Below the pieces are notes generated by a model. The model worked only from the letters and a program-made list of their open reading frames with translations, searched no databases and was not told where the DNA came from. A DNA stretch of 63,914 nt, filler included, from Octopus bimaculoides (lineage: Eukaryota), in NCBI RefSeq assembly GCF_001194135.2. It is 8 parts of 7 records of this genome, joined end to end, with 100 filler letters (N's around TTAATTAATTAA, not from the genome) between each part and the next. Parts side by side here need not be neighbours in the genome. Positions count along the whole stretch, not along the records: positions 1 to 12,399 come from NC_068992.1; positions 12,500 to 21,132 come from NC_068993.1; positions 21,233 to 26,798 come from NC_069004.1; positions 26,899 to 47,150 come from NC_068982.1; 4 more parts are not named here. One strand, 5' to 3'. The position numbers and the translations under genes were made by a program. Shown here piece after piece: positions 2,630-45,364 of this stretch. Every line of letters begins with the position of its first letter. Position 1 is the first letter of the stretch.

Positions 2630-2830
2630 TACACAGACATATTTACATATATAGGGAGAATTCACAAAAAAAAAGACGAAGACGGTGTAGACAACAAACA
2701 GATATATTAGTTTAACGCTCGGGAAGTGAAAAAGTCTTTAACATTTCGAGCCTCCGCTCTTCCACAGAAAGGAACACAGAAAGAAACAGGGAGAGAAAAT
2801 GAAGAATGTGTAGTGGCTAGCGATCTGTCA
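2630..2830 (-). mobile_element. PLE terminal-repeat (pLTR)-like segment carrying a hammerhead motif
   Basis: Same strand as, and upstream across a gap from, the GIY-YIG fragment. Shares 'tctttaac.ttt.gagcct..gctctt..acagaaaggaa' with 32359-32398. Confidence 0.6.
2735..2772 (-). ncRNA. Minimal type-I hammerhead ribozyme-like motif (A6U core variant)
   Basis: Minus strand reads CCUUU-CUGUGGA-A-GAGC-GGAG-GCUC-GAA-AUGU-U-AAAGA. Stem I CUUU/AAAG, stem II GAGC/GCUC, near-palindromic stem III, GUU cleavage triplet. Confidence 0.7.
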
Positions 2831-3023
2831 TGGCAAATACCGGACAGAGGAGTCACACGGGAGAGCTAGGAATAAGGGGAGATAATAAATTTGTGGTGAC
2901 CCCAAAATGAAGGTGCGCGTGCATGTGTACATAAATGAATACACATACACGCACGCACACACAGCAAGCCCTTGCACAAACATACACACATACATAATAC
3001 AGACATACATATACATATATATA

Positions 3024-3060
<37 letters not shown>

Positions 3061-3739
3061 NNNNNNNNNNNNNNNNNNNNNNNNNNNNNNNNNNNNNNNN
3101 NNNNNNNNNNNNNNNNNNNNNNNNNNNNNNNNNNNNNNNNNNNNNNNNNNNNNNNNNNNNNNNNNNNNNNNNNNNNNNNNNNNNNNNNNNNNNNNNNNNN
3201 NNNNNNNNNNNNNNNNNNNNNNNNNNNNNNNNNNNNNNNNNNNNNNNNNNNNNNNNNNNNNNNNNNNNNNNNNNNNNNNNNNNNNNNNNNNNNNNNNNNN
3301 NNNNNNNNNNNNNNNNNNNNNNNNNNNNNNNNNNNNNNNNNNNNNNNNNNNNNNNNNNNNNNNNNNNNNNNNNNNNNNNNNNNNNNNNNNNNNNNNNNNN
3401 NNNNNNNNNNNNNNNNNNNNNNNNNNNNNNNNNNNNNNNNNNNNNNNNNNNNNNNNNNNNNNNNNNNNNNNNNNNNNNNNNNNNNNNNNNNNNNNNNNNN
3501 NNNNNNNNNNNNNNNNNNNNNNNNNNNNNNNNNNNNNNNNNNNNNNNNNNNNNNNNNNNNNNNNNNNNNNNNNNNNNNNNNNNNNNNNNNNNNNNNNNNN
3601 NNNNNNNNNNNNNNNNNNNNNNNNNNNNNNNNNNNNNNNNNNNNNNNNNNNNNNNNNNNNNNNNNNNNNNNNNNNNNNNNNNNNNNNNNNNNNNNNNNNN
3701 NNNNNNNNNNNNNNNNNNNNNNNNNNNNNNNNNNNNNNN

Positions 3740-3770
<31 letters not shown>

Positions 3771-4295
3771 TAAATGCAAATCTCATTCCTTTGGTTATTA
3801 TAAAATATAGAGAGTATCTATTTAAGACACGTTAAAATATGGAGGAAGAATAGTGCATACATAAGGCTTGTTTATACCACACAAATATACAATATATTTT
3901 CTTTAAAGCTCTGTACGACACGTGTTTCTACTGCATAGATATCCTGGGATGTTGTATCTAGAAGTATTGTGTTAGTTCAGTTGCATACTAATTTCATCCA
4001 ATGATAATGATTCCATGCCCCCCCCCCCACTTTCACTCTTTATCTTCAGTTTATAAGTCTATTAGTTCCACGTGATATAAATACATTTAATTGTTATTAA
4101 AGTTCTCGTATCTTTCTTTTACTTTATATTGTCTGAAGGCTATTCATATCCTGACCTGGTCTGGACTTTTCCGATTACTAATTGTTATTCACGTTTAAAT
4201 ACTTCCCATCTAATATATTTAATAAAATATTTAGTAGGCTATCACGGGCTCAAGTGTACAAGAGTCAATCAACCAGATTATATTTATAGATGTAT

Positions 4296-4530
4296 GGGGT
4301 GTTCAAAACGTCTCTCCGTAGTAAGTTTTTAATGGTTTTCGGGCGATTCTTGTACACTGATCCTTTATTTGCTCCACAGGAAAAAAGTCTGTGCAGTGTG
4401 AAATCAGGTAATCGTGGTGGCCAAAGTCTCTTCGAAATAATTCGTTCACCGAAAAACTCTTGAAGTAGCACCATGCTGATGCGCAGGATGAAAACCAAAA
4501 GTCACCGTGGAGAGACATTTTGAACACATT
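4296..4530 (-). mobile_element. Internally deleted Tc1/mariner-superfamily relic with TIR-like end
   Basis: Minus frame LQEFFGERIISKRLWPPRLPDF..SVYKNRPKTIKNL resembles the WPPRSPDL region. It runs into 'ggggtgttcaaaacgtctctcc', an end resembling CAGGGTGTTCAAAA. Confidence 0.75.
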
Positions 4531-5049
4531 GTGCTATAATTAGATTGCCACTAACGTAATGTGAACTTCACCCTATGTTTTTCGAAATAAACATTTATAA
4601 CTTCTATTTTTGCTTTTAATAACTTAACCAATTTAAGGCTACCTATTTGTCCGGAAGATTCATCAGTCTATGTCGTTTTCGATTTGTGAGGAAACGCACT
4701 TCAACAGATTTTGCAATTACCTGACACCTAAATTCTTTCAAGATTTCCTTTCTAAACATAAGAGAAACTCCAGAATAAAAGGAAAATGATCTTTATAACA
4801 ATATCGTTTTTCTCAACAATCTCTACTAAATAATACTACTGTTCGTTTCAAAGCCCTATAATAGTGACGACTTCAATAAATCTGCACTGGTGCGTTTGCA
4901 TTCCACGAAATTATAATGAAACTGAACGAAGAGGGTTCTAGTGGAAGATATATACTAGGATATCTATGTAGGAGAAACAAGTGTCGGGCAGAGTTTTAAA
5001 GAGAATGTATTGTATACATAACTGTTATAAATGTATATATGTGAATGTA

Positions 5050-5087
<38 letters not shown>

Positions 5088-5247
5088 CGAGCTAGTGAAT
5101 GAGTTAGAGTGAGAAAAAATAAAAGAATAAACATTTCCAAGGGTTTCACATACCACTTTACATCAGAAGAAGAGCTGGATTTCGAAACCGTGTCTCTGTA
5201 ATCAAGTATAAATGTGACTTGACTGGTATTCCATTGTGGTTGTTTTC

Positions 5248-5291
5248 TTGTTGTTGTTGTTGTTGTTGTTGCTACTTTCATTATTATCACG

Positions 5292-5361
<70 letters not shown>
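5248..5361. repeat. (TTG)n and (TTA)n microsatellites
   Basis: Direct reading of the sequence. Confidence 0.95.
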
Positions 5362-5362
<1 letters not shown>

Positions 5363-6574
5363 TACAGCAGCGTTGTAAATAACTGAGCGAAAGATCAACA
5401 ATGAAAGTAAGTATGTAAACGTATTATGAAGAAGATGAAGAGTGAGTCAATGATTGCAGAGTTTATGAAAGTGTCAATAATTTCATGCTGTATAGTTCTA
5501 TTGTCTGTACATTGGAAAATTGAAGTTTATTTAGAAATTATTCTTGGCTGTAATTCAATAACTTTATAATCGCTTTCAAGGTAGAAAGGGAGATAAATAA
5601 ATCTGCAGAGATTGATTATACATTAAATATATATACATGCACAAAAGTGTGTATATATATNNNNNNNNNNNNNNNNNNNNNNNNNNNNNNNNNNNNNNNN
5701 NNNNNNNNNNNNNNNNNNNNNNNNNNNNNNNNNNNNNNNNNNNNNNNNNNNNNNNNNNNNNNNNNNNNNNNNNNNNNNNNNNNNNNNNNNNNNNNNNNNN
5801 NNNNNNNNNNNNNNNNNNNNNNNNNNNNNNNNNNNNNNNNNNNNNNNNNNNNNNNNNNNNNNNNNNNNNNNNNNNNNNNNNNNNNNNNNNNNNNNNNNNN
5901 NNNNNNNNNNNNNNNNNNNNNNNNNNNNNNNNNNNNNNNNNNNNNNNNNNNNNNNNNNNNNNNNNNNNNNNNNNNNNNNNNNNNNNNNNNNNNNNNNNNN
6001 NNNNNNNNNNNNNNNNNNNNNNNNNNNNNNNNNNNNNNNNNNNNNNNNNNNNNNNNNNNNNNNNNNNNNNNNNNNNNNNNNNNNNNNNNNNNNNNNNNNN
6101 NNNNNNNNNNNNNNNNNNNNNNNNNNNNNNNNNNNNNNNNNNNNNNNNNNNNNNNNNNNNNNNNNNNNNNNNNNNNNNNNNNNNNNNNNNNNNNNNNNNN
6201 NNNNNNNNNNNNNNNNNNNNNNNNNNNNNNNNNNNNNNNNNNNNNNNNNNNNNNNNNNNNNNNNNNNNNNNNNNNNNNNNNNNNNNNNNNNNNNNNNNNN
6301 NNNNNNNNNNNNNNNNNNNNNNNNNNNNNNNNNNNNNNNNNNNNNNNNNNNNNNNNNNNNNNNNNNNNNNNNNNNNNNNNNNNNNNNNNNNNNNNNNNNN
6401 NNNNNNNNNNNNNNNNNNNNNNNNNNNNNNNNNNNNNNNNNNNNNNNNNNNNNNNNNNNNNNNNNNNNNNNNNNNNNNNNNNNNNNNNNNNNNNNNNNNN
6501 NNNNNNNNNNNNNNNNNNNNNNNNNNNNNNNNNNNNNNNNNNNNNNNNNNNNNNNNNNNNNNNNNNNNNNNNNN

Positions 6575-6836
6575 GGCCGCTGCCAAATTACTGAAAGAAG
6601 TAAAAGAGTGAAAGAGTAACCAAATGTCAATTCCGGAAGTAAAATTCGTGAAGTAAAATTGTGTAGCAACACCAAAAGGCGGTGCTCCAGCATGGCCACA
6701 GCTCATGAGCTGTGGCCATGCTGGAGCACCGCCTTTTGGTGTTGCTACACAATTTTACTTCACGAATTTTACTTCCGGAATTGACATTTGGTTACTCTTT
6801 CACTCTTTTACTTCTTTCAGTAATTTGGCAGCGGCC
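6575..6836. repeat. Perfect 262-bp palindrome (131-bp arms, no spacer) built from SINE 3' sequence
   Basis: Centre gctca|tgagc at 6705/6706. I matched the arms base for base out to ggccgc (6575) and gcggcc (6836); the left end abuts an N gap. Confidence 0.95.
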
Positions 6837-6925
6837 GTGCTGGAGCACCACCTTTAGTCGAGCAAATCAACCCCAGGACTTAATCTTTGGGAGCCCAGTA
6901 CTTATTCTATCGGTCTCTTGTTCCG
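6800..6925 (-). mobile_element. SINE-A 3' fragment
   Basis: 'gctggagcaccacctttagtcgagcaaatcaaccccaggactta' matches copies at 32851-33251 and 62836-63232. Confidence 0.85.
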
Positions 6926-7139
6926 GTCTCGGGGGTAGCTGATGAAGGAAAATGTTCTCTATGTGGCTTGTGTGGTTTTCTGTACTCTGATTATCATTAT
7001 TTTCTTGTCTACGTTTTGTTTGTAATGTCCTGTACCCAGATATGCACCTATACATACAGGTGGATGTCGGTATGCACATACCTGTACGTATATATGCATA
7101 TACTCATTTACTATTTGTTTATATATATATTAAGTTGTA

Positions 7140-7390
7140 TGCTGTCAACTTAACGTGACAGTCCCAATAAGGGAATCATACTACTGCGATTTAGCCCTAG
7201 GAAGCTGCACCGTTTCGTGTTGGCCTTGACACATTTCCTGTGTCCTTATGTTTACAAGGGGGAGACAAGCACCTCCACCAAGCCAGGCATGCATCCAGGG
7301 ACATGTTCCTGGGTTTTTGCTCGTCAACAGCCTGTAGTAGCATGACTTGCTGGCTGAAGATACCCTGCCTAGTTCTCGTAAACATAATAA
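7140..7390. repeat. Unclassified interspersed repeat (second copy at 61878-62070) with terminal hairpin CTGTCA-N8-TGACAG
   Basis: 'ctgtcaacttaacgtgacag..agccctaggaa..caccgtttc..ttgacacatttc..gtccttatgttt..ggagacaagcacctcc' is shared between the two loci. Confidence 0.8.
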
Positions 7391-7392
7391 TT

Positions 7393-8248
7393 CTAGTGAT
7401 TCACCAATGCAGTCTAATTTTTTTGCAAGTAAGCATGCATTTCAACGAGTTGATTCCAGTAAACTTCTGCTGTAATGCTCTGAATGGCTTCCAGAAATCT
7501 GCAATGGACAACACCAATTGCAGACCAACAGACCGTTACCATTATCTTTTGCTGATACAACTTTGGCTATGGGAAATGTTTGGGGGACTCATCACGATCA
7601 AGTCATTAATCTGATCATTTACAGTTATCATAAAGGATCCACTTTTCGTCACAAGTGACTATTCTGTCGAGAAAAGGATCATTGGTGTTTCGCAGAATGA
7701 GCATTCAGCACACTTGAAATCGCCGAACTTTTTGATTTGCAATGGGCTCACACAGTACACATTTACCGAATTTTTCACCTTACTAATCTCATGCAGAGTG
7801 CGTGAGACTGTTGCAATACGAACACCAAGTGTCTGAGACATTTCTCTGACACTTTGACGTGGGTTTTGTTCGACAATTGCTTTTGATTGTTCATTGTCAA
7901 GACTGCATGACCATCCTCTGCCTTCTTCATCTTCAAAGTTCTCATCACCAGTACGGAATTTCTGAAACCACCTTCGTACTGTGCGATCACTTGTGGACTC
8001 TTCTCCCCATGCTCTGTTGATATTGGCAGCAGTTCGCGAGGCATTGTGCCCAAGCTTCATGTCCTGCAATAAAAGGGCACCTATGCTTCAAGAATGTTCT
8101 GTCTTAAATAAGTAGAAATTTATTAAAGAGCATACATCAATTATTAAGTATGTAGAAATTCACCTGAAATATAATTAAAATACTATGATAAAATTGCGTT
8201 TGAAAACACAATGTTTAGAGCGGCCATTAGTTTCGGAACAACCTAATA
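7393..8248 (-). mobile_element. Mariner transposon relic (5' TIR, HTH, first catalytic Asp; 3'-truncated)
   Basis: TA plus TIR-like 'ttaggttgttccgaaactaatggccg' (TA at 8247-8248). Minus frames: GHNASRTAANINRAWGEESTSDRTVRRWFQKFRTGD..., FLDRIVTCDEKWILYDN, PKLYQQKIMVTVCWSAIGVVH. Stops and frameshifts present. Confidence 0.93.
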
Positions 8249-8877
8249 TTATAGCATTTACATAGTTTACCTGCCATCTTGGGATTCTGGGTACCAAAAT
8301 CTCTTATATATATTGCATACAAACATACATTCATACATATATACTACTATTTCAATTCATATACATACATACTTGCATGCATGCATTTATATAAACTCAA
8401 GTACATACATATGATGAATTTCCAACACGGTTTTCAGCGTACGGAATTTATCTAACTGATAAACAGAAAAAAGAATCAGTACTAAATTCTCTCATTAAGA
8501 TGCTATTGCAGAATGCTGTTGAAATTTTACTCCATCAACATAGGTTTGACTATAATGGTGAAGAACGAGCTGGACTTTTCTACAAAGCGATAATGCTGTA
8601 AAAGTGGTCGGAAGTTTCTCGAATAACACTCTTCCGGTTTCATACCTATGACATATCTTAAAGACCTCAGTAGCTATGTGCATCAGCTTTGTGCATCAAA
8701 CCGGAATTTCTAAAATCACATGTTATTTTAGAAAAAACTGTATTAAAAAATGTATAAGAGGAACAGCCAAATCAGAGTAATTTAGTGATGACATAGAGAC
8801 ATATAGGCAGGAAATGATCTATCTATCTATCTATCTGTCTCTCTCTATATATATGTGTATATATATGTATATATAAG

Positions 8878-8921
<44 letters not shown>

Positions 8922-9583
8922 NNNNNNNNNNNNNNNNNNNNNNNNNNNNNNNNNNNNNNNNNNNNNNNNNNNNNNNNNNNNNNNNNNNNNNNNNNNNNNN
9001 NNNNNNNNNNNNNNNNNNNNNNNNNNNNNNNNNNNNNNNNNNNNNNNNNNNNNNNNNNNNNNNNNNNNNNNNNNNNNNNNNNNNNNNNNNNNNNNNNNNN
9101 NNNNNNNNNNNNNNNNNNNNNNNNNNNNNNNNNNNNNNNNNNNNNNNNNNNNNNNNNNNNNNNNNNNNNNNNNNNNNNNNNNNNNNNNNNNNNNNNNNNN
9201 NNNNNNNNNNNNNNNNNNNNNNNNNNNNNNNNNNNNNNNNNNNNNNNNNNNNNNNNNNNNNNNNNNNNNNNNNNNNNNNNNNNNNNNNNNNNNNNNNNNN
9301 NNNNNNNNNNNNNNNNNNNNNNNNNNNNNNNNNNNNNNNNNNNNNNNNNNNNNNNNNNNNNNNNNNNNNNNNNNNNNNNNNNNNNNNNNNNNNNNNNNNN
9401 NNNNNNNNNNNNNNNNNNNNNNNNNNNNNNNNNNNNNNNNNNNNNNNNNNNNNNNNNNNNNNNNNNNNNNNNNNNNNNNNNNNNNNNNNNNNNNNNNNNN
9501 NNNNNNNNNNNNNNNNNNNNNNNNNNNNNNNNNNNNNNNNNNNNNNNNNNNNNNNNNNNNNNNNNNNNNNNNNNNNNNNNNNN

Positions 9584-9803
9584 CGTATGAAAAAAAGTCC
9601 CGTGTGGAAGGGATTACGGTTTAGCCATCTAACTTAGAGATATCAAATATAAAATATACAAGAATAAGGGCAGAGAATCGTCAATTAATAATAGAATTAA
9701 TAATTAACAATTTTGCCAAGTAGTTCAGTATGAAAAAAACCTTTATCGGTAAAACTATTTATCATTATAAATATACAGGGATTAGCAATTGAGTTGCTTC
9801 TCC
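9584..9803. repeat. Unclassified interspersed repeat, copy 1 of 3 (others 11338-11580, 19562-19790)
   Basis: 'aagaataagggcagagaatcgtcaatta..gccaagtagttcagtatgaaaaa..cctttatcggtaaaa' is shared among the three loci. Confidence 0.85.
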
Positions 9804-9871
9804 AACATATATATATATATATACACACACATATGTATATATATATATATATATACATACATACATATAAG

Positions 9872-10250
9872 TGTAGGCACAATGACCCAGTTGTTAGGAC
9901 AGTGGACTCGTGGTCGTAGGATCACGGTTTCCATTCCCAGACCGGGCGTTGTGAGAGTTTATTCAGTGAAAACACCTAAAGCTCCACGTGGCTCCAACAT
10001 GGGGTAATGGTGAACTCTGCTGTACACTTTCACCACAAATCTCTCTCACTTTTTCTTCCTGTTTCTGTTGTACCTGTATTTCAAAGGGCCAGCTTTGTCA
10101 CACTCTGTCTCACGCTGAATCTATACGTTAACTACGTCAAGAGTAGACGTGTCTGTGGAGTGTTCAGCCTCTTGCATGCTAATTACACAAGCAGGCTGCT
10201 CCGTAGATCGGAGCATGTGGAACGTACGTCGTCGTAACCGACGTTGTGCC
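9872..10250 (+). mobile_element. tRNA-headed SINE (C-group head, alternative body, shared tail)
   Basis: A-box-like tgacccagttg, B-box-like ggtttccattccc. The 3' part matches 32533-32700, 23468-23576 and 63450-63605 in reverse complement. Confidence 0.8.
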
Positions 10251-10276
10251 ACGATGTATATATATTTGTATATACA

Positions 10277-11278
10277 TACAGAGTGGGTAGAAAGTAACTA
10301 GGCATTAGAAATTGCTTATGGAGCTTTTACTGTCACGGAAGTCACGAGAAAAATATATTTTAAACAGACAACACTAATGATGATTTCTTATTTTCTTATT
10401 TCTTCTTTTCCAGGAGCAAGCTAAGATGACATTAACTGTGAAGTGTGGAATTCTAATGTCTTGGTTCCGTGATAGTGGCGTGCATGGAGAGGTAAGCATG
10501 CAAATCTGAGTCTGGAAACAATAAAAAGTTGACATGCAAAGCTGATTACCACGGGCTCTTTGAACGATGCGAGAGTTGGCCGCCCAGCCATATCTCGATC
10601 AGCGGAGAACGTGGCAACAGAGCTGGCAGAAACGACGAGCTGGCAGAAACGTAAACACGCCAGGCGAAATACGTAACGGTATTTCGTCTGCCATTACGTT
10701 CTGAGTTCCAATTCCGCCGAGGTCGACTTTGCCTTTCATCCTTTCGGGGTCGATGAAATAAGTACCAGTTACGCACTGGGCTCGATATAATCGACTTAAT
10801 CCGTTTGTCTGTCCTTGTTTGTCCCCTCTGTGTGTAGCCTCTTGTGGGCAGTAAAGAAATAAGAAATGTTTAATCGCAGCTCGCAAAAATCAGCAGCCCG
10901 GGAAAGTGGACTAACAAGACTAAAGAATTGAATTCTCGTCTATGGGAACCCCATTACGTGCAAGAGCTAAAGCCCGAAGACTGTAGCCGCAGAATTCCAA
11001 AAAGTCGAGATCTCACTCCATGTGATTTTTACCTGTGAGGTTACACAAAAGCGGAGGTGTAAAACAAAAAACCTCGTACACTGGAAGATTTGGAGACACG
11101 GATTCAGGCGGTTCTGAATGAGATCCTTGACGATGTCGTTCAGAATGTTGTCCATTCCATTCCTCGGTGTTTAAGAAATCCGTTGACGATACCAGTACTT
11201 ACGTTGAAATATAAAAATTTACTTTTATTTTCCCATGTAATAAAGAACATGTGTCATTCGTTTCAATAACACTGTGTA
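10277..11278 (+). mobile_element. Internally deleted Tc1/mariner-superfamily transposon interrupted by a SINE
   Basis: TA-cagagtggg... left end, ...cactgtg-TA right end. Frames: ETIKS*HAKLITTGSLNDARVGRPAISRSAENVAT [SINE] FNRSSQKS..ARESGLTR..HYVQELKPEDCSRR / PKSRDLTPCDFYL*GYTKAEV*NKKPRTLEDLETRI. Confidence 0.85.
10612..10867 (+). mobile_element. SINE-B, nested in the transposase
   Basis: gagctggcagaaacg (tandemly duplicated), B-box gagttccaattcc, aaagaaat tail. Homologous to 38477 and 62477. Confidence 0.9.
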
Positions 11279-11337
11279 TATATATATATATATGCATGAC
11301 GGATTCTTCCGTCTAAGACGACGAATGAACATTTTTT

Positions 11338-26898: not shown

Positions 26899-27135
26899 GG
26901 AAACTGAAAGAAGCCCGTCGTATATATGTATATATATATATGTCTGTGTTTGTCCCCCCAACATCGCTTGGCAACCGATGCTGGTGTGTTTATGTACCCC
27001 TAACTTAGCGGTTCGGCAAAAGAGACCAATAGAATAAGTACTAGGCTTCCAAAGAATAAGTCCTGGGGTCGATTTGCTCGACTAAAGGCGGTGCTCCAGC
27101 ATGGCCACAGTCAAAAGACTGAAACAAGTAAAATA
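26899..27135 (+). mobile_element. SINE-A 3' part
   Basis: 'gactaaaggcggtgctccagcatggccacagtc..gactgaaacaagtaaaa'. Confidence 0.9.
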
Positions 27136-27344
27136 GTAAAATAGTATATGTACATATACATTCTCTCTTTTTCTCTCTCTCCCTCAACACACACGTACAC
27201 ATACACACACAAACGCACACGTATTTGTTTATTCACGTGTGTACATATGTCTTTTTGTAAATGTGGGCGTGTATATTGCAAGGAAGGGTGTGCGCCAGTG
27301 CGTCTCTGAGGCCTATGGATCATTAGGCTCGTTGAATCGTCAGC

Positions 27345-27500: not shown

Positions 27501-27574
27501 TACGTCATGCATGGAGTGAATCTGCATTGAATAAACCAGTCACATGCCAGCTCTTGGCAGTTCCTTGATTTCAT

Positions 27575-30881: not shown

Positions 30882-30952
<71 letters not shown>

Positions 30953-31047
30953 GTGTTTGTGTGTACATGTGTGTGTACATGTGTGTGTATGTGTGTGTGT
31001 GTGTATGTATGTGTGTGACCAACCAGTGTAAAATTAATTGCAGAACT

Positions 31048-32289: not shown

Positions 32290-32520
32290 TATATATATAC
32301 ATGCAGTTGAAATTTATAGAAAGACAAGAAAAAGACAGTCGGGAAAAATGGAAAAAAATCTTTAACGTTTTGAGCCTTTGCTCTTCAACAGAAAGGAATG
32401 AGAGAAAATGAACAGAGAGAGAATGGAAAAAAACTTGTAGATTTCAGCGGTCCAGCGTATACATTTATATACTATTGCTTAAAACAGGTTGGTTCTGATC
32501 CCGAATAAGCTGAGCTTTTA
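32290..32520 (-). mobile_element. PLE pLTR-like segment related to 2630-2830
   Basis: Shared hammerhead-like block with similar purine-rich flanks. Confidence 0.55.
32359..32396 (-). ncRNA. Minimal hammerhead-like motif (A6U core; G12A in this copy)
   Basis: CCUUU-CUGUUGA-A-GAGC-AAAG-GCUC-AAA-ACGU-U-AAAGA. Confidence 0.6.
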
Positions 32521-32532
32521 TATGAAGCCAAC

Positions 32533-32835: not shown

Positions 32836-32850
32836 ACGCACAATAATATG

Positions 32851-33052
32851 CTCTTTTACTTGTTTCAGTCATTTGACTGTGGCCATGCTGGAGCACCGCC
32901 TTTAGTCGAGCTAATCGACCCCAGGACTTATTCTTTGGAAGCCTAGTACTTATTCTATCGGTCTCTTTTTGCCGAACCGCTAAGTTACGGGGACGTAAAC
33001 ACACCAGCATCGGTTGTCAAGCGATGGTGGGGAGACAAACACAGACACACAA

Positions 33053-33087
<35 letters not shown>

Positions 33088-33251
33088 ACGGGCTTCTTTC
33101 AGTTTCCGTCTACCAAATCCACTCACAAGGCTTTGGTCGGCCCGAGGCTATAGTAGAAGACATTTGCCCAAGGTGCCACGCAGTGGGACTGAACCCGGAA
33201 CCATGTGGTTGGTAAGCAAGCTACTTACCACACAACCACTCCTGCACCTAT
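32851..33251 (-). mobile_element. Full-length SINE-A
   Basis: Complete head, body, internal microsatellite and 3' module. Confidence 0.93.
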
Positions 33252-34261
33252 AGCCACTCCTGGAGACAATATTTGTTTAATGCACTTTATTATAGAACAG
33301 ATGGCATTGTTATTTATCCCTTATCTAAACAGGCACCCCTCTGATCAAAAATTGTAGCAGCTTCATCCACTCCATCTTTTTCTCTGAACATGAGAACCAC
33401 GTCTACGTCATTCCATTTGTCCTTTTCTGAGACAACAGCGTATGATTTACGTGAATGTTGACTTCGAGCAGGTCAATCGACCACGTTAAAGCTCCTTCGT
33501 TGCCTCGTATTGTAATAATTGATTAAGTGTGCTGTTATCGTATATGTGATATGCGAATCTGCTTTTGCATGATGTATGAGTATTTCTATATATATGTGTG
33601 TCTGTATGCATCGAAAGAGAGACAGGAAAGCAGACGGGCAGGGCGACACTCAGATGAATGCGTCAGATAAGATAAGATTTCAGGCTCCGTCTGACAAGCT
33701 ACTGAGCGCTATTGGCTAGTATCAGCTCAAGTTCAATGACCTCGGTTTAATTAAGGTATTACATCACCATTTAGAAGCATGCCTGTCAACTCGATAGAGT
33801 TTGCACAGCAGTTGTTGTCTGAAGCATGATAAAAATTTTTCGGTTTGTCAATATGACAGAAGGGCACGGAAAATACATTTAAATTATGATTTAAACCTTG
33901 GACTACTCACTCATGCATTATATTTGATATATGCATGTGTTTGTATGGGGGGTGTTTTGTGTGTGTGTGTGTGAGACCATCGGTGTGCATTAACATCCAA
34001 TAGTCTAGAGTTAGAGTATGAAAGAATGTGTGTGTGTAAGTGTGTGTGTGTGCGTGCGTGCCCTAAATTGGCAGTAATGTAACCTTTTTAATTTTGACAC
34101 AGCCAGCAATTTTGAGGGAAATTCGAAATCGATTACATCGATACCAGTGCTCCATTCGTGCTTATTTTATCGACCCTGAAACGAGAAAAGGTCGAGCTCG
34201 GTGGCAATTGAGCTCAGAGCTTGAAACGACAGAAGAAATGCCGCTAAACATTTCATACGGC

Positions 34262-34426
34262 TGTGTCTGGGGAGAGTCATTTTCTTTTTTGTGCCTTATA
34301 ATTTAACACACTCGCCGGTAAAATTTCCACTTATTTCTTATTATTATTTTCTAAAATTTTCGTTGCGTCTTGCAACCTTTTCAATCTCCACTTCATTAAA
34401 ACATGCATCAAATCCAAAAATGAAAT
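34262..34426 (-). mobile_element. 165-bp non-coding insert with 12-bp flanking direct repeat (ATTTCATACGGC)
   Basis: Direct repeats at 34250-34261 and 34427-34438. Confidence 0.8.
34351..34385 (-). ncRNA. Hammerhead-like motif with U3/A8 core variant (stem I not formed in this copy)
   Basis: UUGAAAA-G-GUUGC-AAGAC-GCAAC-GAA-AAUU-U-UAG. Confidence 0.5.
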
Positions 34427-35580: not shown

Positions 35581-35739
35581 GCATTGTGGGTGGCTGTGAG
35601 GTGTCTAGCTGAGCGTTAGCATAAGATAAAACTGTAAAAATTATCACAAGTTATCCAGCTTTTCTCTCCATGCACGTATTTATTAATGTATTTCACAGTT
35701 AGTATATAACGACATTATCACTCCATAGAGCCACATACA

Positions 35740-36530
35740 GCTATTATTTCGAATAATGATTATTGTATCACATTTCTAAGATTCCTGCCAAATCGAAATT
35801 ATTTTCTGGACTTCCTAGCAGTACTAATAGATATTAGATGTTAGATATTTTCTTTCCTGTTCAGGATATTGGAAAAAATTTATGCTCGCTCGACAGCTCT
35901 AAGACCAAAGAGCCAGACAAAATTCAATACTATTCCACGAGGTTACTAATTCACTATCTACATCTTATATTTGATTATTCTGCTAATCATTTAATCAAGA
36001 TCTAATCCTTGCCGAATAGAGGCCTGTCGTTTGTGTGGCAATCAACAAAATAAAATGTATCAAAATAATGTAATAATTTTAATGCTAATAGCTTCAGACC
36101 TTTTTCAATTACTTCAAACTGCTAGTGCGTTTAGTCAACGATAAAAGGTTGGATTTCTTACGCTCTAATAATCTGATTTATTCTGCTCAATTTGAATTAC
36201 AACCTCACCACGCAACAAAAGAGCAATTCAGCTTATCTATTCACTAAATTGTTGTCTGAACTTGTAAATTAAAAACCTCTAACTTCGCAATTTATGTAGA
36301 TTTGGCTTGTTTTTGATGCTCTACTCTGTTATTAGCTATCATACAAACTTCATTGCTTAAGGGAAACCGTTTCAGTCTGTTCAAAATAATTTAGTAGCTT
36401 TCTTCCCGGAAGAACCAAAAGAAGAGCATCAGTAATAACTTCTCTGATTTACGTGCCTTACAGCTCGTATTCCCCAGAGCAACATTGTTGCCTTAACCTT
36501 ATTTCATTTAATTTATTTAGGTCAAGACTG
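35740..36530 (+). mobile_element. Heavily decayed LINE reverse-transcriptase region
   Basis: Remnant motifs FRPF.ITS, LVNDKRLDFLRSNNLIYSAQF, AIYVDLA.FD, IPQS (VPQG-like). Confidence 0.65.
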
Positions 36531-36789
36531 ATTCATATTGGCCCTTATTCATTAGTTTCTTCTAACACTTAATGAAATGGTTAAAACTATGCTGATGTCT
36601 CTGTTGGTGCTATCACACGGCGTCAGTATCATTATTAATATTGAATTGCAGATTGGGCAAAACATTCAGATTGTTCGGGTTAAATTTGACGAATTTATGT
36701 CGCCTTTCTTTTCAGGAAGAGCTTGCTGTATTGGTAAACAATCAACAGCGTTGGAGAGCATAAAGATTAAAGTTGTAGTTGAGAAAAAT

Positions 36790-37560
36790 GTAGCTGACAT
36801 GGAAGACTGGAAGCCATCAGAATATTGGAGAGGAGACACCTGTACCATGATGATTTGCGTCGAGTATCAGAATGACGACACCATGACTGCTGCACGGTGC
36901 TCTGTGAGCACTGTAAATGTTGTAAGATGTGACATTGTCAGGGACACAGCAGGTGTTCTGACTGGATCTACACACCCCCACTTCTTTGGACAAGGCCTTG
37001 GATAAATTCAGACGTCTATGTGAAACAGCTGGAGACTGTGGTCAAATTGTGGCTGAAGAGGGTTACTGTTGGCTGTCTATATTTGTCAAAGCAGGATTCG
37101 GTTTCTTGCCATACATCCGAATTATTACAGGCAAGTCCACCACCATCAATTCACCGTGGAGAAAGTTCACTGTGAAGACAGTTCACCGCGAGGAGAGTTT
37201 ATCGAGAAAATATCTCCATAGTATCTCACCATTAATAGTTAAAAACTATATTATTGAAAAAAGAAAATACGGTGGATTGATGACGGTGAACTTACCGGAC
37301 ATGTCTCCGAAAAGAGTCGGAAGTGGTTGACAGAGAATTTCTACATCACCGGCTCCTGTTTCTGGCCTCCTAATTACCCAGATTGTAATCCATAGATTAC
37401 TATGCGAGGGGAACTTTTGAGAAAGAAACCAACCGCTCTGTGTGCATCACTAAGGCCGAGATGGAGTCCAAGATCAAGGAAGCGTTCAAAGAGCTTCCCA
37501 GGGGCACAGTGAGGAACTTATGCACAAGGTCCCGGAACTGTTATCTCCAAGCTACAACCT
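36790..37560 (+). mobile_element. Internally deleted Tc1/mariner-superfamily relic split by a MITE
   Basis: MEDWKPSEYW..; PHFFGQGL..SDVYVKQLETVVKLWLKRV..KQDSVSCHTSE [MITE] KSRKWLTENF..FWPPNYPDCNPIDYY..EKETNRS. Confidence 0.85.
37130..37296. mobile_element. Small MITE with 28-bp imperfect TIRs
   Basis: 37130-37157 versus reverse complement of 37269-37296: 23/28 identical; interrupts the transposase reading. Confidence 0.7.
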
Positions 37561-37809
37561 AGTTCGTAATTTTTAATTTTTTAAATTTAATTTTTTAGAT
37601 TTAATTTTTTTGAAACTGCGAGCAAGTGAAAGAGTTATCACTGGCATCAACGACCAGTGTTTAATTAGAAGTCAGTATGGAAACTGATCCACTAAATAAC
37701 AAAGGATTTTGAGCACTACCCTTATGGAAAACTGGAATGAAACATTGCTCATTTGCTTCCTATCCTCGCTCACATACTTTCAAAACCCGCACACTTTCAA
37801 CCCAACCCC

Positions 37810-37846
<37 letters not shown>

Positions 37847-38476
37847 TCACCCCAAATTGAATACTTATATAAACATGACGGAATCAGCAAGTAACATACA
37901 ATGGAAAGCCTGTAAGCTCTTCCAGTTTCCGTTAGAAATAAATGGTGTGAAGATACCCAGGAGAGTGTCTGAAAAATAGAACAACAATCTTCTGGGATAA
38001 GAAAATATACAGAGACAAAATCAACGAAACATTGTTATCAAAGACCAAAGAAGCACAAGTTGTACTTTTATTTGGAATGCATAGCATGGTAAACTATTTT
38101 GACCAAAGAGACCAAAAAGTTATCCAAATACAGGGATTGGTTTTCTTCTATAATTAATATATTATCATCAGTGAAAATAAATTCTAATAATCATATAGGA
38201 ATATTTACATTTGCCTTGTAGAACTGACTTATAGGAAAGGGGACTGTCGCTATCATCTTCCTTAACTTGAATAACGCAAAAGTATTATAGTCTTCTTATA
38301 AGTGATATCCGTCATAGATTATTTACGCTTTTAGCATTAGATTTTATTGTATGTAATTATCTCCAAATCGACTTAACAGTAGTTGATCAGCTCTAGTGAT
38401 CACATTCTTACCAATTTAACCATATTAACTGTTCATTAAACATGCCAAAGTGATTTTGTTAACGTAGGATTATTTC

Positions 38477-38668
38477 AAGGCGGCGAGCTGGCCGAATTGT
38501 TAGCACACCGGGCAAACAGCTTTGCGGCAATTCGACCGTCTTTACGTTCTGAGTTTACTTTCCGCCGAGGTCGATTTTCCCCTTCATTCTCCCGGGGCCG
38601 ATAAAATAAGTAACAGTTGAACTTTGAGGTCGATGCAGTAGGCTTAACCCCTCCACGAAATTGCTAGC
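38477..38668 (+). mobile_element. SINE-B
   Basis: ggcggcgagctggc head; homologous to 10612. Confidence 0.85.
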
Positions 38669-39177
38669 TGATATAACAATACATGACTTTAAAAACTGTT
38701 CAGCTTTTGAAAGTTTCATTTTAACAAGAGACCGAAGTTGCTTTCCTGACTCTAAACCAGTGGTTACCGACCATCTTTTTGCCTATGGATCCCCCTTGAC
38801 TCCTATTTTACTCTGGTGGACCGCCGTAGCCTTTCGATGTTTATATATATATATAAAAAATCCCATTGTATTTTTATAATTAAATATTATTAGGAATTGT
38901 ATAAAACTTTAAAATATTTTGTGTATCACAGAAGCAAATCAATTTATTACACATAAATTTTAATATCGACCTCGGTGATATTTGAATTTATAATACAAAG
39001 ACATGACGCTCATCATTTTGTCCGGGGTGCTAACGATTCTATCAGCCTTCAGCCTTCAACTGGCTAATGATAATGAACCGCTTTAATGTAAGCAGATGAG
39101 TTATCATTAACGAAAAAAGTGAAATAATCACAGTTGTAAATCCTTTGATAATAGGTTTGCTAACATAGGGTAAAAGG

Positions 39178-39501
39178 TTAAGACCCCCTTCAGTCATGAA
39201 TGACCATAGGATTGCACCTAGAAACGTCCCCTTCGTGGCACAGGTGAGGTTGTATATAGAAGACCAACGGTCACCCGAGCGTACCAGACTTTCCTCTCCA
39301 CGCCACTGACGTTATCCAAGGGATAGGCAATGGCCGATAGAACTTGGAACCTGTAACGTTGCAACTCATTTCTGCAGGTGAATAAACTGGAGCCACATGA
39401 AATTAAGTGTCTAGCTCAAGAACACAAGACATAGCTCGGTCAGGGAAACGAACTCACTACCTCATGTTTGTGAGCCCGATGCTCTAAACACTGAACCATG
39501 C
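39178..39501 (-). mobile_element. SINE-C
   Basis: Homologous to 12558-12871. Confidence 0.88.
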
Positions 39502-39687
39502 TAACATAGGACATTCATTTAAGCTACAATTCACACAGTTTCGAATACAGTGTGCGTGAGACTGAAGACTCCAGGCAGTCAAAAAAACTGACATTTGAGA
39601 GACTGCGTGAATCATAAGTTTTCTAAGTGATGCTGACCAGTCTACAGTGCTTTATGCATAAAACTAGTGCACACCAAACACATATTC

Positions 39688-39722
<35 letters not shown>

Positions 39723-40239
39723 NNNNNNNNNNNNNNNNNNNNNNNNNNNNNNNNNNNNNNNNNNNNNNNNNNNNNNNNNNNNNNNNNNNNNNNNNNNNNN
39801 NNNNNNNNNNNNNNNNNNNNNNNNNNNNNNNNTATATGTATATATGTGTATATGTATATATATATGCATATGTGAATATATATGTATGCACATATTTATA
39901 CACACACAAACACAAGCACACACAATTAGTGGGAAATAATGTTGTGGGGGAACAGCTGTCATCGTTAATGATGGCAAGAGTGGTAAAGGAAGGCCCAACT
40001 CGATGCACAACAAATAGATCAAGGTAGTTAAATGGGAAAACATCAGTTTTCTCGCTGTATGCATAGTATACACCATAAAAATATATAAAAGGATAGTAAT
40101 GACGCAATCCTCCTGATACAACAAGACGTCCAGGGCCAATCGAAGAACCCCAACATCCCAGATCTTCCTGAACACTAATGACAAGTGTCCTCTTCAGTTT
40201 TGCTCACCGGCTTACAAGCTTATATTTGGAGTGGTGCCA

Positions 40240-41400
40240 CTTTTGCAACTTTCGTTCATCATTCAATAAATCCACTCTAGGCAGCACCTCACTATTCACT
40301 CTAATTTTCCTTTTCAAGTAAAACTTGAAAATGTTGACGAAAGCCTTTCAGCCTCGTTCGCCATATTTCTTCTTTCGCTGTAGACAAAAACTGCCTTCCC
40401 TACTCGGTTAAAGAGAGCAGCGAGGCAGTCATTAATAGATTCTGTCAGTAGCCGGATCCGTTCCGCACGTGGCACAACTCTGCAATGGCTGGACACTGAG
40501 CGAGTGCTTGCAGAACGATTTCTTCCCTTTAGACGCATCTCGGACAAGCCCGTCTATCTCAAACCGGTTGTATCCCACGATAACATTGCCAGGCTAAAGA
40601 CTTTTGGAAATATCCATAGCAGTCTCCAATCGAAATGTCTTCCGGAACAAACAAGTCAGTTCGTTTTCGTCAACACCGAGGTTTCTCCTTGAGAATGTCG
40701 TCACCCTTTCTCGCCACTAATCCTCTATAGATTGCTGGAAGTAGCACATCTACCGATCACATTACTTGACTGGCAGAGGGCGATGAGTGCCTGAGAATAT
40801 TCTTGGTGCCAACGCCCAGTCTCGATCTTTGCTTTATGTAGGACTGCAGCTCTTTCAAGGAAACGTGCCATGGAAAGACGTTCCTCACGAACAGTGCCTA
40901 CACACGTTCACTACCAAGGAACTTTTGCAGATGGCGTCGTTCAGGTGTATGTCTGCATATCTATAGTCACGATATCCCTACGCCGCTGTGCAGAGGGTGC
41001 TGGCAACTGATGGGCTGTCTGAGAAGAGAAAGTTTCCTTTCCACAGGTAATTGAATAACAAACGTTCCATTCAGGTCAAATGGTAGCTTGGTCAGGGCAC
41101 AACAGTTAAATGATGAACCAGAAAGGAAGCAATATAGGCATTCGCCTGTCCTACTCTTTCGGCGATAGATTCCTCTTGGCTAATTTCTGAGTAAGTCTAA
41201 CCAACTGCTCGTGACCTCATCCTATAGACCCCCATCGAATAGCTTTTCTTTCTCTCGAATTTAAGTGCACAGGCCTTGGCTCTAACAACGCGGCCTTCGT
41301 GTTTCGTCTCTGAGAAATAGTTGAGGACCATTCTCACTGCTAGCACGTAGGTCGTATTAATACCAACTGCAGCAATTTCAATACCCTAGGAAGGTCAACC
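40240..41400 (-). mobile_element. L1/Tx1-like LINE, ORF2 C-terminal relic
   Basis: Decayed minus frames including LYRGLVARKG.DDILKENLGVDENEL..SLAWQCYRG..RACPRC (Cys-finger remnant). Confidence 0.6.
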
Positions 41401-41800
41401 ACGATCACATGCATAAGCCTTTCTCTTTTAGTTAGATTCATAGAAAGAATACTATGTAGGCTAAGAAAAGCAGCATAAAAGCAGGATGATTACAAATCTC
41501 AATACTGGAAGAGAAGCAAATGACTGAAAAATGACCTTGAAATGTCTTTTAAGTCTGAATTTCTTCATTTAAGGTATTTCTGGATTTGAACTCAGAACTA
41601 ACAATGTCATTAGACTGCGCCCATGCTGGGGTACCGGCTTGAGGAATTTTAGTTGAGCCAATCAGCCCCCCACCCCCGTACTTTTCTTTTTTCTTAAACC
41701 TGGTACTTAATCTATCAGTCTCTTTTACCGGAACGTAAACACACCAACACTGGTTGTCAAGCGGTGGTGGAGGACAAACACAAACACAAAGACACACACG

Positions 41801-41831
<31 letters not shown>

Positions 41832-42796
41832 TCAAGTTATCTGCGATGATTTTTAGCAATCGGTGTTGATTTTACAAATCTGTAGATAATAATAATGTTT
41901 TATAAGCTTAAAGCTTANNNNNNNNNNNNNNNNNNNNNNNNNNNNNNNNNNNNNNNNNNNNNNNNNNNNNNNNNNNNNNNNNNNNNNNNNNNNNNNNNNN
42001 NNNNNNNNNNNNNNNNNNNNNNNNNNNNNNNNNNNNNNNNNNNNNNNNNNNNNNNNNNNNNNNNNNNNNNNNNNNNNNNNNNNNNNNNNNNNNNNNNNNN
42101 NNNNNNNNNNNNNNNNNNNNNNNNNNNNNNNNNNNNNNNNNNNNNNNNNNNNNNNNNNNNNNNNNNNNNNNNNNNNNNNNNNNNNNNNNNNNNNNNNNNN
42201 NNNNNNNNNNNNNNNNNNNNNNNNNNNNNNNNNNNNNNNNNNNNNNNNNNNNNNNNNNNNNNNNNNNNNNNNNNNNNNNNNNNNNNNNNNNNNNNNNNNN
42301 NNNNNNNNNNNNNNNNNNNNNNNNNNNNNNNNNNNNNNNNNNNNNNNNNAAAAGGAGGTACCTCAAAAAAACCTTCGACAGATTTTGTCTCAGCGCTCTA
42401 CTGCTTAAACATTTAAGTAAATTGAGACACTAACCCTATATCAGTTCTCACTTTTAAATATCCTGTTCTCCAGCAAACTACTCCACTTAAATGCTAATTG
42501 TGAGGATACTTGCCCTCGCTTCCTTGTATACAAAATTACAACCACCGGTAGCCGTCAGCAGACGCACCGTCGGCGTTAATAATCAAACGAAACAAATTAA
42601 GGAAATTAGAGATAAGTAGGTAAAAGTAATGTTGTGAAGAATACACGAATATAGTATATAAGCGTAGATCTGCACATATACACACAACAACACACATGCA
42701 CACACTCACACACATACACACACAGAGCTGCATATATCATTACAATTCGATAAATTTGTGCATGGGTGCTAGAACATCTATCTATCTATCTATCTA

Positions 42797-42837
<41 letters not shown>

Positions 42838-43729
42838 NNNNNNNNNNNNNNNNNNNNNNNNNNNNNNNNNNNNNNNNNNNNNNNNNNNNNNNNNNNNNNN
42901 NNNNNNNNNNNNNNNNNNNNNNNNNNNNNNNNNNNNNNNNNNNNNNNNNNNNNNNNNNNNNNNNNNNNNNNNNNNNNNNNNNNNNNNNNNNNNNNNNNNN
43001 NNNNNNNNNNNNNNNNNNNNNNNNNNNNNNNNNNNNNNNNNNNNNNNNNNNNNNNNNNNNNNNNNNNNNNNNNNNNNNNNNNNNNNNNNNNNNNNNNNNN
43101 NNNNNNNNNNNNNNNNNNNNNNNNNNNNNNNNNNNNNNNNNNNNNNNNNNNNNNNNNNNNNNNNNNNNNNNNNNNNNNNNNNNNNNNNNNNNNNNNNNNN
43201 NNNNNNNNNNNNNNNNNNNNNNNNNNNNNNNNNNNNNNNNNNNNNNNNNNNNNNNNNNNNNNNNNNNNNNNNNNNNNNNNNNNNNNNNNNNNNNNNNNNN
43301 NNNNNNNNNNNNNNNNNNNNNNNNNNNNNNNNNNNNNNNNNNNNNNNNNNNNNNNNNNNNNNNNNNNNNNNNNNNNNNNNNNNNNNNNNNNNNNNNNNNN
43401 NNNNNNNNNNNNNNNNNNNNNNNNNNNNNNNNNNNNNNNNNNNNNNNNNNNNNNNNNNNNNNNNNNCGGACTCAGAAGTTACAGCCCGAGTTGTTATCTA
43501 TAACAATAAAAATTAAAGTTCTTCAAATTCAATTTTCTCTTGAAACAATAAATTTCTATAGAGATTAGGATTTAAATTCCAATCTATGAAATGATTCCGT
43601 TCTACAATATCCTTAAATGAACGAAAAATTATCTCACAACTCGAGCTAATACGGACGAGCCTGGTAAGTGTAAAATACTAACTGGTATCTCTTGTCAAGA
43701 GTACAGGCGACAGTCAGATCACTGATCTT

Positions 43730-43804
43730 CGTTGTGCACTCCACCGTTGTGCACTCCGCCGTTGTGCACTCCGCCGTTGTGCACTCCGCCGTTGTGCACT
43801 CTGC
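43730..43804. repeat. 15-bp minisatellite, 5 copies (cgttgtgcactccrc)
   Basis: Units start at 43730, 43745, 43760, 43775 and 43790. Confidence 0.95.
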
Positions 43805-44034
43805 TGTTATTCTATGCGTCTGTGTGTAAAGATCAGTTGTGTTTTATCAGGGTTCTTTTATTTTTACCCTTAACTTAGAAATGGAGACAGACATAGTGCT
43901 AGATGTAAAAAGAAATAAGCCATTTAGGACTAGAAATAAAGCGGGAAAACGTGAAATTCCTCCAGCTGGCATGTGTCTTACGCGAAACCTGCGATGAGCC
44001 CGTGTGACACTGATGACCTGGTGTCGCCTGGCTG

Positions 44035-44096
44035 GATAATTGAAGAGATGTTGGAGTGGATCCCCCATCCTGGCATCCGAAACTCGGAGTTTTATC
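44035..44096 (+). ncRNA. Type-I hammerhead ribozyme-like motif (C3U)
   Basis: GAUAA-UUGAAGA-[GAUGUUG..GGAU-CCCCC-AUCC-UGGCAUC]-C-GAA-ACUCGGAGU-U-UUAUC. 5-bp stem I, palindromic stem III, GUU triplet. Confidence 0.7.
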
Positions 44097-44216
44097 ATGG
44101 CTACTGAATAAGTGTCACATATTTTTACAGATAAATTCCTCTATTTGCATAATATCGAGGTTTCTTTCTTTCTTTTGTTGCCATTCCTGTCAATTATATA
44201 TATATATATACATATC

Positions 44217-44250
<34 letters not shown>

Positions 44251-44906
44251 NNNNNNNNNNNNNNNNNNNNNNNNNNNNNNNNNNNNNNNNNNNNNNNNNN
44301 NNNNNNNNNNNNNNNNNNNNNNNNNNNNNNNNNNNNNNNNNNNNNNNNNNNNNNNNNNNNNNNNNNNNNNNNNNNNNNNNNNNNNNNNNNNNNNNNNNNN
44401 NNNNNNNNNNNNNNNNNNNNNNNNNNNNNNNNNNNNNNNNNNNNNNNNNNNNNNNNNNNNNNNNNNNNNNNNNNNNNNNNNNNNNNNNNNNNNNNNNNNN
44501 NNNNNNNNNNNNNNNNNNNNNNNNNNNNNNNNNNNNNNNNNNNNNNNNNNNNNNNNNNNNNNNNNNNNNNNNNNNNNNNNNNNNNNNNNNNNNNNNNNNN
44601 NNNNNNNNNNNNNNNNNNNNNNNNNNNNNNNNNNNNNNNNNNNNNNNNNNNNNNNNNNNNNNNNNNNNNNNNNNNNNNNNNNNNNNNNNNNNNNNNNNNN
44701 NNNNNNNNNNNNNNNNNNNNNNNNNNNNNNNNNNNNNNNNNNNNNNNNNNNNNNNNNNNNNNNNNNNNNNNNNNNNNNNNNNNNNNNNNNNNNNNNNNNN
44801 NNNNNNNNNNNNNNNNNNNNNNNNNNNNNNNNNNNNNNNNNNNNNNNNATAAATACATATTTATATACATATACATATACACATATATATACATATATAT
44901 ATATAC

Positions 44907-44937
<31 letters not shown>

Positions 44938-45316
44938 CATATGTATATACATATTTATATATATATATATGTGTGTGTATGTGTGTGTATATATATTAAA
45001 ACCCCACCCATACCTCTTCTCTACCCATCCCTTAATGCAGCTCTATCACGTCACCCCCAGTAATATATCTCACACTTATTCACTTCTTACCATCTCATTT
45101 CTTCCTATCCTTCCACCAACTCCTCTCCCATCCTCCCCTCACATTATCTTGACCACCAACTAACACTCCTTTTCTCTCAATTCTTTCACCCTTTCTTCAC
45201 ATTTTTTTCACTCTTTTCATTCTCTTATTACCCTCTATATTCCCTATCTCGTCCTTTTCCATAATAATTCTTTATTTCCAACTCAAATATATTCCTCTAT
45301 TTAACCATCTCACATC

Positions 45317-45364
45317 GTCTCTGATGGAGGGATATCCATAATATCCCAGAAACAGCTGTAAGAC
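45317..45364 (+). ncRNA. Type-I hammerhead ribozyme-like motif with palindromic ACAGCUGU stem III
   Basis: GUCU-CUGAUGG-A-GGGAUAU-CCAUA-AUAUCCC-A-GAA-ACAGCUGU-A-AGAC. Stem I GUCU/AGAC, 7-bp stem II, GUA triplet. Confidence 0.72.

What the first reader, a model, noticed from the sequence alone, without database searches (positions are those of the whole stretch)
2735..45364. Six minimal dimer-type hammerhead-ribozyme variants from about four families in one 43-kb stretch
Seen: motifs at 2735(-), 23334(+), 32359(-), 34351(-), 44035(+) and 45317(+) share the order stem I / 7-nt core / stem II / GAA (AAA in two copies) / short self-complementary stem III (AUGU, ACGU, AAUU, ACUCGGAGU, ACAGCUGU) / UH / stem I'. 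Stem sequences differ between families yet remain paired, and each has an extra unpaired base at a stem II junction. Established: PLEs carry minimal type-I hammerheads with palindromic stem III, including core variants, that cleave as dimers. Inference: this genome holds a large, diverse population of such variant ribozymes, some outside recognisable PLE ORFs, which canonical-core searches would miss.
Basis: partly seen in the sequence, partly recalled or inferred. Interest (0 to 1): 0.75.

Follow-up and report, generated by a model that had tools for sequence, protein, structure and literature searches.

The report
Penelope hammerheads, dominant A6U lineage
The six motifs are worn tail ends of very abundant Penelope-like jumping genes that carry a known, predicted self-cutting RNA shape; most odd letters are decay, but one lineage with about ten thousand copies has a U at a normally fixed core position and likely still keeps the motif under selection.

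Summary
Five of six motifs fit a minimal-hammerhead descriptor, above chance. The sixth (34351) lost stem I by truncation, but its family has it. They lie on three contigs, not in one 43-kb stretch. Each is the 3' end of a high-copy repeat; four families have a GIY-YIG endonuclease upstream in longer copies, so these are Penelope-like element (PLE) ends with the published minimal hammerhead (PMC4209133).

Most 'variants' are decay of the window copies. 'AAA for GAA' occurs at the CpG rate (18/142 vs 122/1183); C3U and A9G are minority changes in canonical families.

Family-level variants: U3-A8 (published), U4C, and A6U. The A6U pattern has 9,766 exact matches against 2,074 for A6. Between two A6U subfamilies, 0/30 motif positions differ against 15/77 flank positions, while the free positions 7 and 17 both change.

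I found no A6U natural hammerhead in the papers I could search; Lünse 2017 was not readable. This scan noted A6U before in other genomes. Cleavage is untested, and copies do not start at the cut site.

The parts
2647..2927 (-). Family B PLE 3' end (part of 3' UTR plus tail), ending in (TA)n
   Evidence: 89% over 290 nt to a long member, L172; 3255 first-look candidates
2736..2771 (-). Minimal hammerhead motif, core CUGUGGA (A6U, a family trait); predicted cut 2740/2739; ACGU decayed to AUGU in this copy
   Evidence: U6 in 29 of 29 family rows
23330..23390 (+). Family C fragment with motif 23334-23369; family majority core CCGAAGA (U4C in 17 of 28); this copy has G3, A4 and G12A
32340..32454 (-). 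Family A PLE 3' end with motif 32360-32395, core CUGUUGA (A6U, a family trait); G12A is CpG-type decay
   Evidence: position 6 is U in 25, C in 4 and A in 0 of 29 rows
34254..34385 (-). Family D PLE 3' end with U3-A8 core UUGAAAA (34384-34378) and AAUU palindrome; 5' strand of stem I lost by truncation
44033..44193 (+). Family E (Hydra-clade-like) PLE 3' end with motif 44035-44096; family core canonical CUGAAGA, this copy C3U; 9-nt odd palindrome; predicted cut after 44091
45001..45441 (+). Family F PLE 3' end (internally deleted) with motif 45317-45364; family core canonical CUGAUGA, this copy A9G; 8-nt palindrome; predicted cut after 45360

Best explanation
The six motifs are decayed, 5'-truncated 3' ends of Penelope-like retrotransposon families whose parent elements carry a minimal type I hammerhead predicted to cut only as a dimer, and the A/B lineage carries a fixed A6U core that likely works as a slowed ribozyme kept under selection. 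Shown: repeat families, position downstream of RT/GIY-YIG, family-level pairing, decay of the window copies, conservation of the motif between A6U subfamilies. Inferred from PMC4209133: two motifs on one tandem transcript pair through the stem III palindrome, exchange stem I strands and cut after position 17, which processes the element's RNA. The window copies themselves are likely inert passengers.
For: High-copy families: 669-3255 first-look candidates each, with a fixed 3' end at (TA)n, variable 5' truncation and inverted or tandem partial copies. A same-strand GIY-YIG lies 0.5-1.3 kb upstream in B (about 10 loci), D (4 independent loci), E (2) and F (2). B's RT has homologues with RVT_1 plus GIY-YIG in one protein. 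Family majorities have stems I and II paired and a palindromic stem III. In 28 A6 hits from a pattern that did not ask for pairing, 153 of 196 stem cells pair against a shuffle mean of 131; 0 of 5000 shuffles reach it (relatedness not controlled). Stem I covaries between A/B (C-G) and C (G-C). A vs B: 0/30 constrained positions differ vs 15/77 flank positions (p=0.005), with N7 and H17 both changed. N7 takes three states and H17 three states, none of them G, among four subfamilies. A natural A6C hammerhead cuts slowly (PMC3088659, PMC7151607).
Against: There are no cleavage data. 0 of 29 tail-baited B copies start within 3 nt of the cut, and no family shows a pile-up of copy starts there. RNA-seq shows no ends at the cut (fragmented libraries, weak test). 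A6C lowered the rate in Mg2+ from 0.3 to 3.6e-6 per min in one strong hammerhead, and even canonical minimal PLE hammerheads cut poorly. U6 can pair with A15.1 in a rod-like monomer fold. The active dimer is 4.5-6.6 kcal/mol above two monomers for all 4-nt palindromes, U6 or A6. No ORF link was found for family C (0 of 47 matches), and family A is linked only through its kinship with B. The selection test rests on 2-4 subfamilies.
Confidence: 0.72

Rival explanations
1. The A6U motif no longer cuts. It is kept as a rod-shaped RNA signal (stem I, core paired to the palindrome, stem II) that the element's RT or another protein reads.
For: The predicted monomer fold of A, B and the young subfamily pairs U4-G5-U6 with the palindrome and A15.1. 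N7 and H17 would also be free in that fold. No copy starts at the cut. Naiads spread without canonical hammerheads (PMC8557442).
Against: U16.1 and the full ACGU palindrome are kept and H17 is never G in the four majorities, which the rod does not need. Canonical family F forms a similar rod. Folding z-scores are weak, -2.3 to +0.7.
Confidence: 0.17
2. A6U is a loss-of-function change that hitch-hiked in one successful master lineage; the apparent conservation is small-sample chance and the ribozyme is dispensable.
For: Only 2 subfamilies were ascertained without the motif pattern. Flanks are pyrimidine-rich and indel-prone. RNA reads of run X21 show 4-14% changes at C3, U4, G8 and G12.
Against: p=0.005 on substitutions only. 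In three contig runs of other organisms, the large non-CpG variation inside the motif is at N7 (20-34% of depth) and H17 (about 2-6%), plus U4A in one run (9%).
Confidence: 0.09
3. The motifs are chance hairpins in AT-rich repeat DNA.
For: No Rfam hammerhead hit; weak folding z-scores; post-hoc descriptor.
Against: Family majorities restore canonical cores in E and F; pattern counts of 9,766 and 2,074 against reversed controls of 12 and 11; position matches the published PLE layout.
Confidence: 0.02

Closest known systems
[quoted passage not shown]
   Same: Short stem I, extra base between positions 9 and 10.1, G10.1-C11.1, palindromic stem III (ACGU is the commonest), mostly single motifs from truncated elements, U3-A8 variant (S. 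mansoni; as in family D), U3 with G8 (S. kowalevskii; as in the 44035 copy).
   Different: All motifs in the Fig. S3 text that I read have A6, and no cephalopod is listed. Families A/B have U6 and family C mostly C4.
Hydra-clade PLE hammerheads, Craig et al. 2021 (PMC8557442; passages, section 11 and supplement look-ups), e.g. Hydra-1_Obim
   Same: Family E's endonuclease end has CxxC before and CxH after the conserved E and N residues and resembles the published alignment by eye; odd 9-nt palindrome; (TA)n insertion; one published element carries the same 12-nt GAA-plus-palindrome word.
   Different: E's stems differ from the Hydra-1_Obim motif, so it is a sister family. No tree was built.
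Natural core variants A6C (phage Bcep176) and U4C (viroid): Perreault 2011 (PMC3088659; section 8 and passages) and Naghdi 2020 (PMC7151607; part 1 of 4)
   Same: Change at the same core positions, with low but detectable activity.
   Different: Those are rare single ribozymes. Here U (not C) at position 6 is fixed in a minimal dimer-type motif with thousands of copies.
Dimer-cleaving variant hammerheads of PLEs, Lünse, Weinberg and Breaker 2017 (not held; seen only as cited in PMC6765202)
   Same: Diminished palindromic stem III, PLE association, cleavage as dimers (per the review).
   Different: Could not check whether A6U is among its variants; this bears on novelty.

Membership tests
Minimal type I hammerhead of PLEs | Core CUGANGA and GAAA | tested here: inconclusive
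   Met by the majorities of E and F; D has the published U3-A8 pair; A/B have U6 (not met); C has C4 in 17 of 28
Minimal type I hammerhead of PLEs | Stems I and II paired around the core | tested here: met
   All six family majorities; 153 of 196 unforced cells pair in A6 hits
Minimal type I hammerhead of PLEs | Palindromic stem III followed by U-H | tested here: met
   ACGU, AAUU, ACUCGGAGU, ACAGCUGU; H17 is A, U or C in the majorities
Minimal type I hammerhead of PLEs | Extra base between 9 and 10.1; G10.1-C11.1 | tested here: met
   A-D meet both; E has the extra base on the 3' side and F has A on both sides
Minimal type I hammerhead of PLEs | Self-cleavage as a dimer | not testable with these tools
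   Folding favours the active dimer only for E and F; no genomic or read footprint of cutting
Penelope-like element (EN+) | RT followed by C-terminal GIY-YIG, motif in the 3' end | tested here: met
   B, D, E and F; the Pfam GIY-YIG hits of these fragments are below the curated cut-off; not shown for C; A only by kinship with B
Penelope-like element (EN+) | 5' truncation, inverted or tandem partial copies, (TA)n insertion | tested here: met
Neptune/Nematis clades (families B and D) | CX2-5CxxC linker before GIY-YIG | tested here: inconclusive
   Motif seen by eye in L281, L291 and L191; no tree, so the two clades are not separated
Hydra clade (families E and F) | CxxC and CxH around the conserved E and N; RT phylogeny | tested here: inconclusive
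   Motifs present in L049; F's endonuclease is about 30% like E's; no RT tree
Non-LTR retrozyme | Tandem ORF-less repeats, each unit with a hammerhead | tested here: not met
   Window copies are solo; longer copies continue into a PLE 3' UTR and ORF; tandem pairs occur in only a few of 180 loci

The most novel reading that the evidence does not exclude
A retrotransposon lineage replaced the near-invariant A6 of its hammerhead with U, then out-amplified its canonical relatives about five-fold while keeping the rest of the ribozyme under selection. The U6 core is a tuned switch: it locks the monomer in an inactive rod and allows slow, dimer- or cofactor-dependent cutting that the element needs.
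Probability: 0.25. Interest if true: 0.6.

Novelty: new variant of a known kind. Interest (0 to 1): 0.36.

Why it matters
Whether PLE hammerheads work for the element or merely ride along is open (PMC8557442). The A6U lineage is a natural test, with sister A6 families in the same genome. If it cuts, the core tolerates more than the consensus allows, and canonical-core searches miss the majority class among those counted here (9,766 vs 2,074). If it does not cut yet is conserved, the motif has a second, non-catalytic role. The rest of the finding is an already described system in decayed copies.

Tried and rejected
Rfam scans found no hammerhead.

Physical clustering was rejected: the motifs lie on three contigs, and no other window stretch matches the 60 kb upstream or 30 kb downstream of stretch 4 (those regions are 27% and 45% N).

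An alternative register for A/B, with a UUGAAGA core three bases downstream, was rejected: it breaks stems I and II and does not fit B or the alignment with family C (sequence).

G12A as a functional variant was rejected: the rate equals that of other CpG sites (p=0.39) and is 0 of 28 where G12 is not in a CpG. Two baits carried the A, which inflates the rate.

The GIY-YIG at window 1195-1608 as partner of motif 2735 was rejected: its family carries another hammerhead downstream (3 of the 20 closest loci).

Cut-site footprint: 0 of 29 tail-baited B copies start within 3 nt (one starts about 5 nt before); starts within 3 nt in B 0 of 177, D 1 of 47, E 0 of 43, C 0 of 47 matches; F's count was swamped by microsatellite matches.

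Sequencing runs: no RNA holder was listed. Three raw RNA runs labelled organism B hold reads of the family on both strands with no end pile-up at the cut; this is not a test of cleavage.

PDB search of the RT: no hit. Pfam missed the RT fragments.

Literature searches for A6U or cephalopod hammerheads and supplement look-ups found no natural A6U hammerhead. Supplementary file 1 of PMC4209133 was not searchable, and Lünse 2017 is not held.
Full report
Observation. The window is a pack of eight stretches. The six motifs lie in three of them and map to contigs C12, C24 and C2 of a 2.34-Gb genome, so the '43-kb stretch' does not exist. A relaxed descriptor finds five of the six. At stem I >=4 it finds nothing else, against a mean of 0.15 (max 1) in 40 shuffles; it was written after seeing the motifs. 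The motif at 34351 lacks stem I in this copy. Rfam has no matching hammerhead model hit.

Families. Each motif belongs to a high-copy repeat: 2463, 1421, 1744, 669, 1372 and 3255 first-look candidates, 40 scored and 30 loci fetched for each. Copies end at a fixed 3' point in (TA)n, are variably 5'-truncated, and some have inverted or tandem partial copies. After dropping the window copy and duplicate rows (28-29 rows left per family), the majority cores are: A CUGUUGA, B CUGUGGA, C CCGAAGA (17 C, 9 U, 2 A at position 4; CpG decay could turn C4 into U4), D UUGAAAA with a 3-bp stem I, E CUGAAGA and F CUGAUGA. None of the six window copies equals its family majority over core and stems. The changes are G12A (twice), C3U, A9G, AUGU, G3-A4 and loss of stem I. 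G12A occurs in 18 of 142 cells where G12 is in a CpG, like other CpG sites (122 of 1183, p=0.39) and above non-CpG sites (248 of 6336); it is 0 of 28 in family F, which has no CpG there.

Link to Penelope-like elements. Upstream of family D lie RT remnants, a cysteine linker and a GIY-YIG (four independent loci). For family B, a search with the far 5' end of the 3' UTR gave loci in which a GIY-YIG with a CX2-5CxxC linker ends about 0.5-0.8 kb before the motif, with RT motifs further up. The RT fragment's homologues include proteins with RVT_1 and GIY-YIG together (7 of 92 rows; one search agrees). Family E is preceded by an endonuclease end of Hydra-clade type (compared by eye), and F by a similar one at two loci. 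No ORF was reached for C (0 of 47 matches). Family A is a sister of B (80% alike). This matches the published picture: Cervera and de la Pena describe the same architecture, the extra base, the palindrome, the U3-A8 variant and mostly solo copies, and Craig et al. list an octopus Hydra-clade motif with an odd 9-nt palindrome. That this genome is an octopus comes from earlier notes of the scan and was not tested here.

The A6U lineage. Position 6 is U in 54 of 58 A and B rows, C in 4 and A in none. An exact pattern with U6 has 9,766 matches genome-wide (reversed control 12); the same pattern with A6 has 2,074 (control 11). Both counts cover only the ACGU type and are lower bounds. Clustering 146 of 203 unique copies on flanks alone (57 did not extend through the motif; 18 stayed in small groups) gives U6 in 67 of 68, 36 of 41 and 11 of 11 copies, and A6 in 8 of 8 of sister family C. 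A young subfamily (median 2.5% from its majority) keeps U6 and has a 5-bp stem I. Between A and B, found without the motif pattern, 0 of 30 constrained positions differ against 15 of 77 flank positions (p=0.005), and the two free positions N7 and H17 both differ. Over four subfamilies the counts are 1 of 30 (a loop deletion) against 32 of 84, but two of the four were pattern-ascertained and the flanks include indels. Contig runs labelled as three other organisms vary mainly at N7, H17 and CpG sites, with U4A at 9% in one. RNA run X21 shows U6 to C in 100 of 1325 reads, no U6 to A above 2%, and 4-14% changes at C3, U4, G8 and G12.

Mechanism. Inferred from the published model: in a tandem transcript two motifs pair through the palindrome, exchange stem I strands and cut after position 17. 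Folding supports this for F (the active dimer is the best dimer) and E (6.1 kcal/mol below two monomers). It is 4.5-6.6 kcal/mol unfavourable for all 4-nt palindromes, whether U6 or canonical. U6 allows a rod in which the core pairs with the palindrome, which is the basis of rival 1. Natural A6C is slow, strongly so in Mg2+, so U6 is probably slow too; that is inference. The window's same-strand neighbours (32359 with 34351; 44035 with 45317) have different palindromes and cannot dimerise. I found no footprint of cutting in copy starts or read ends; both tests are weak.

Novelty. The system is known, and the window copies are decayed. The family-level U6 core was not found in my searches (supplements 60, 91, 94), but Lünse 2017 was unreadable and may hold it. 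The scan has noted A6U in PLE hammerheads of other genomes; those notes are unchecked and are not counted as support. Verdict: new variant of a known kind, interest 0.36.

Noticed in passing
window 1195-1608 (-): Stop-free GIY-YIG endonuclease end of a PLE with cysteine linker (Pfam E 7e-7; 10,549 candidates). Its family carries a different hammerhead, U3-A8 with an ACCGGU palindrome and U on both sides of stem II (L227, L233, L239).
   Followed up: partly
L234, L248, L258, L261, L265: Further minimal hammerhead families, most with U3-A8 cores, and palindromes ACUAGU, ACCGGU, AACCGGUU, AUAU.
   Followed up: no
L035:6975 (+): Single motif with U4C core, 6-bp stem I and 8-nt palindrome ACCCGGGU.
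   Followed up: no
L335, L336, L344, L345, L348-L350: Near-identical young U6 subfamily with a 3-nt loop II, C at position 17 and a 5-bp stem I; the best candidate for an assay.
   Followed up: partly
L008, L009 and L296-L325: Some family A copies are followed by a second shared segment that translates to an RGYP-containing peptide, like the PLE RT thumb region (motif recalled); possibly a partial tandem.
   Followed up: partly
window 7662-8087 (-): Mariner-type transposase fragment (Pfam HTH_48, E 7e-13).
   Followed up: no
window 50197-51762 (+): Broken non-LTR retrotransposon: RT fragment (RVT_1, E 1e-5) and downstream ORF pieces.
   Followed up: no
window 14351-14872 (-): 174-aa frame that looks by eye like an LTR-retroelement integrase end; no Pfam hit.
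   Followed up: no
window 26942-27136, 32851-33250, 60174-60533, 62479-63233 and others: Several abundant short dispersed repeats, SINE-like, 75-94% alike within the window.
   Followed up: no
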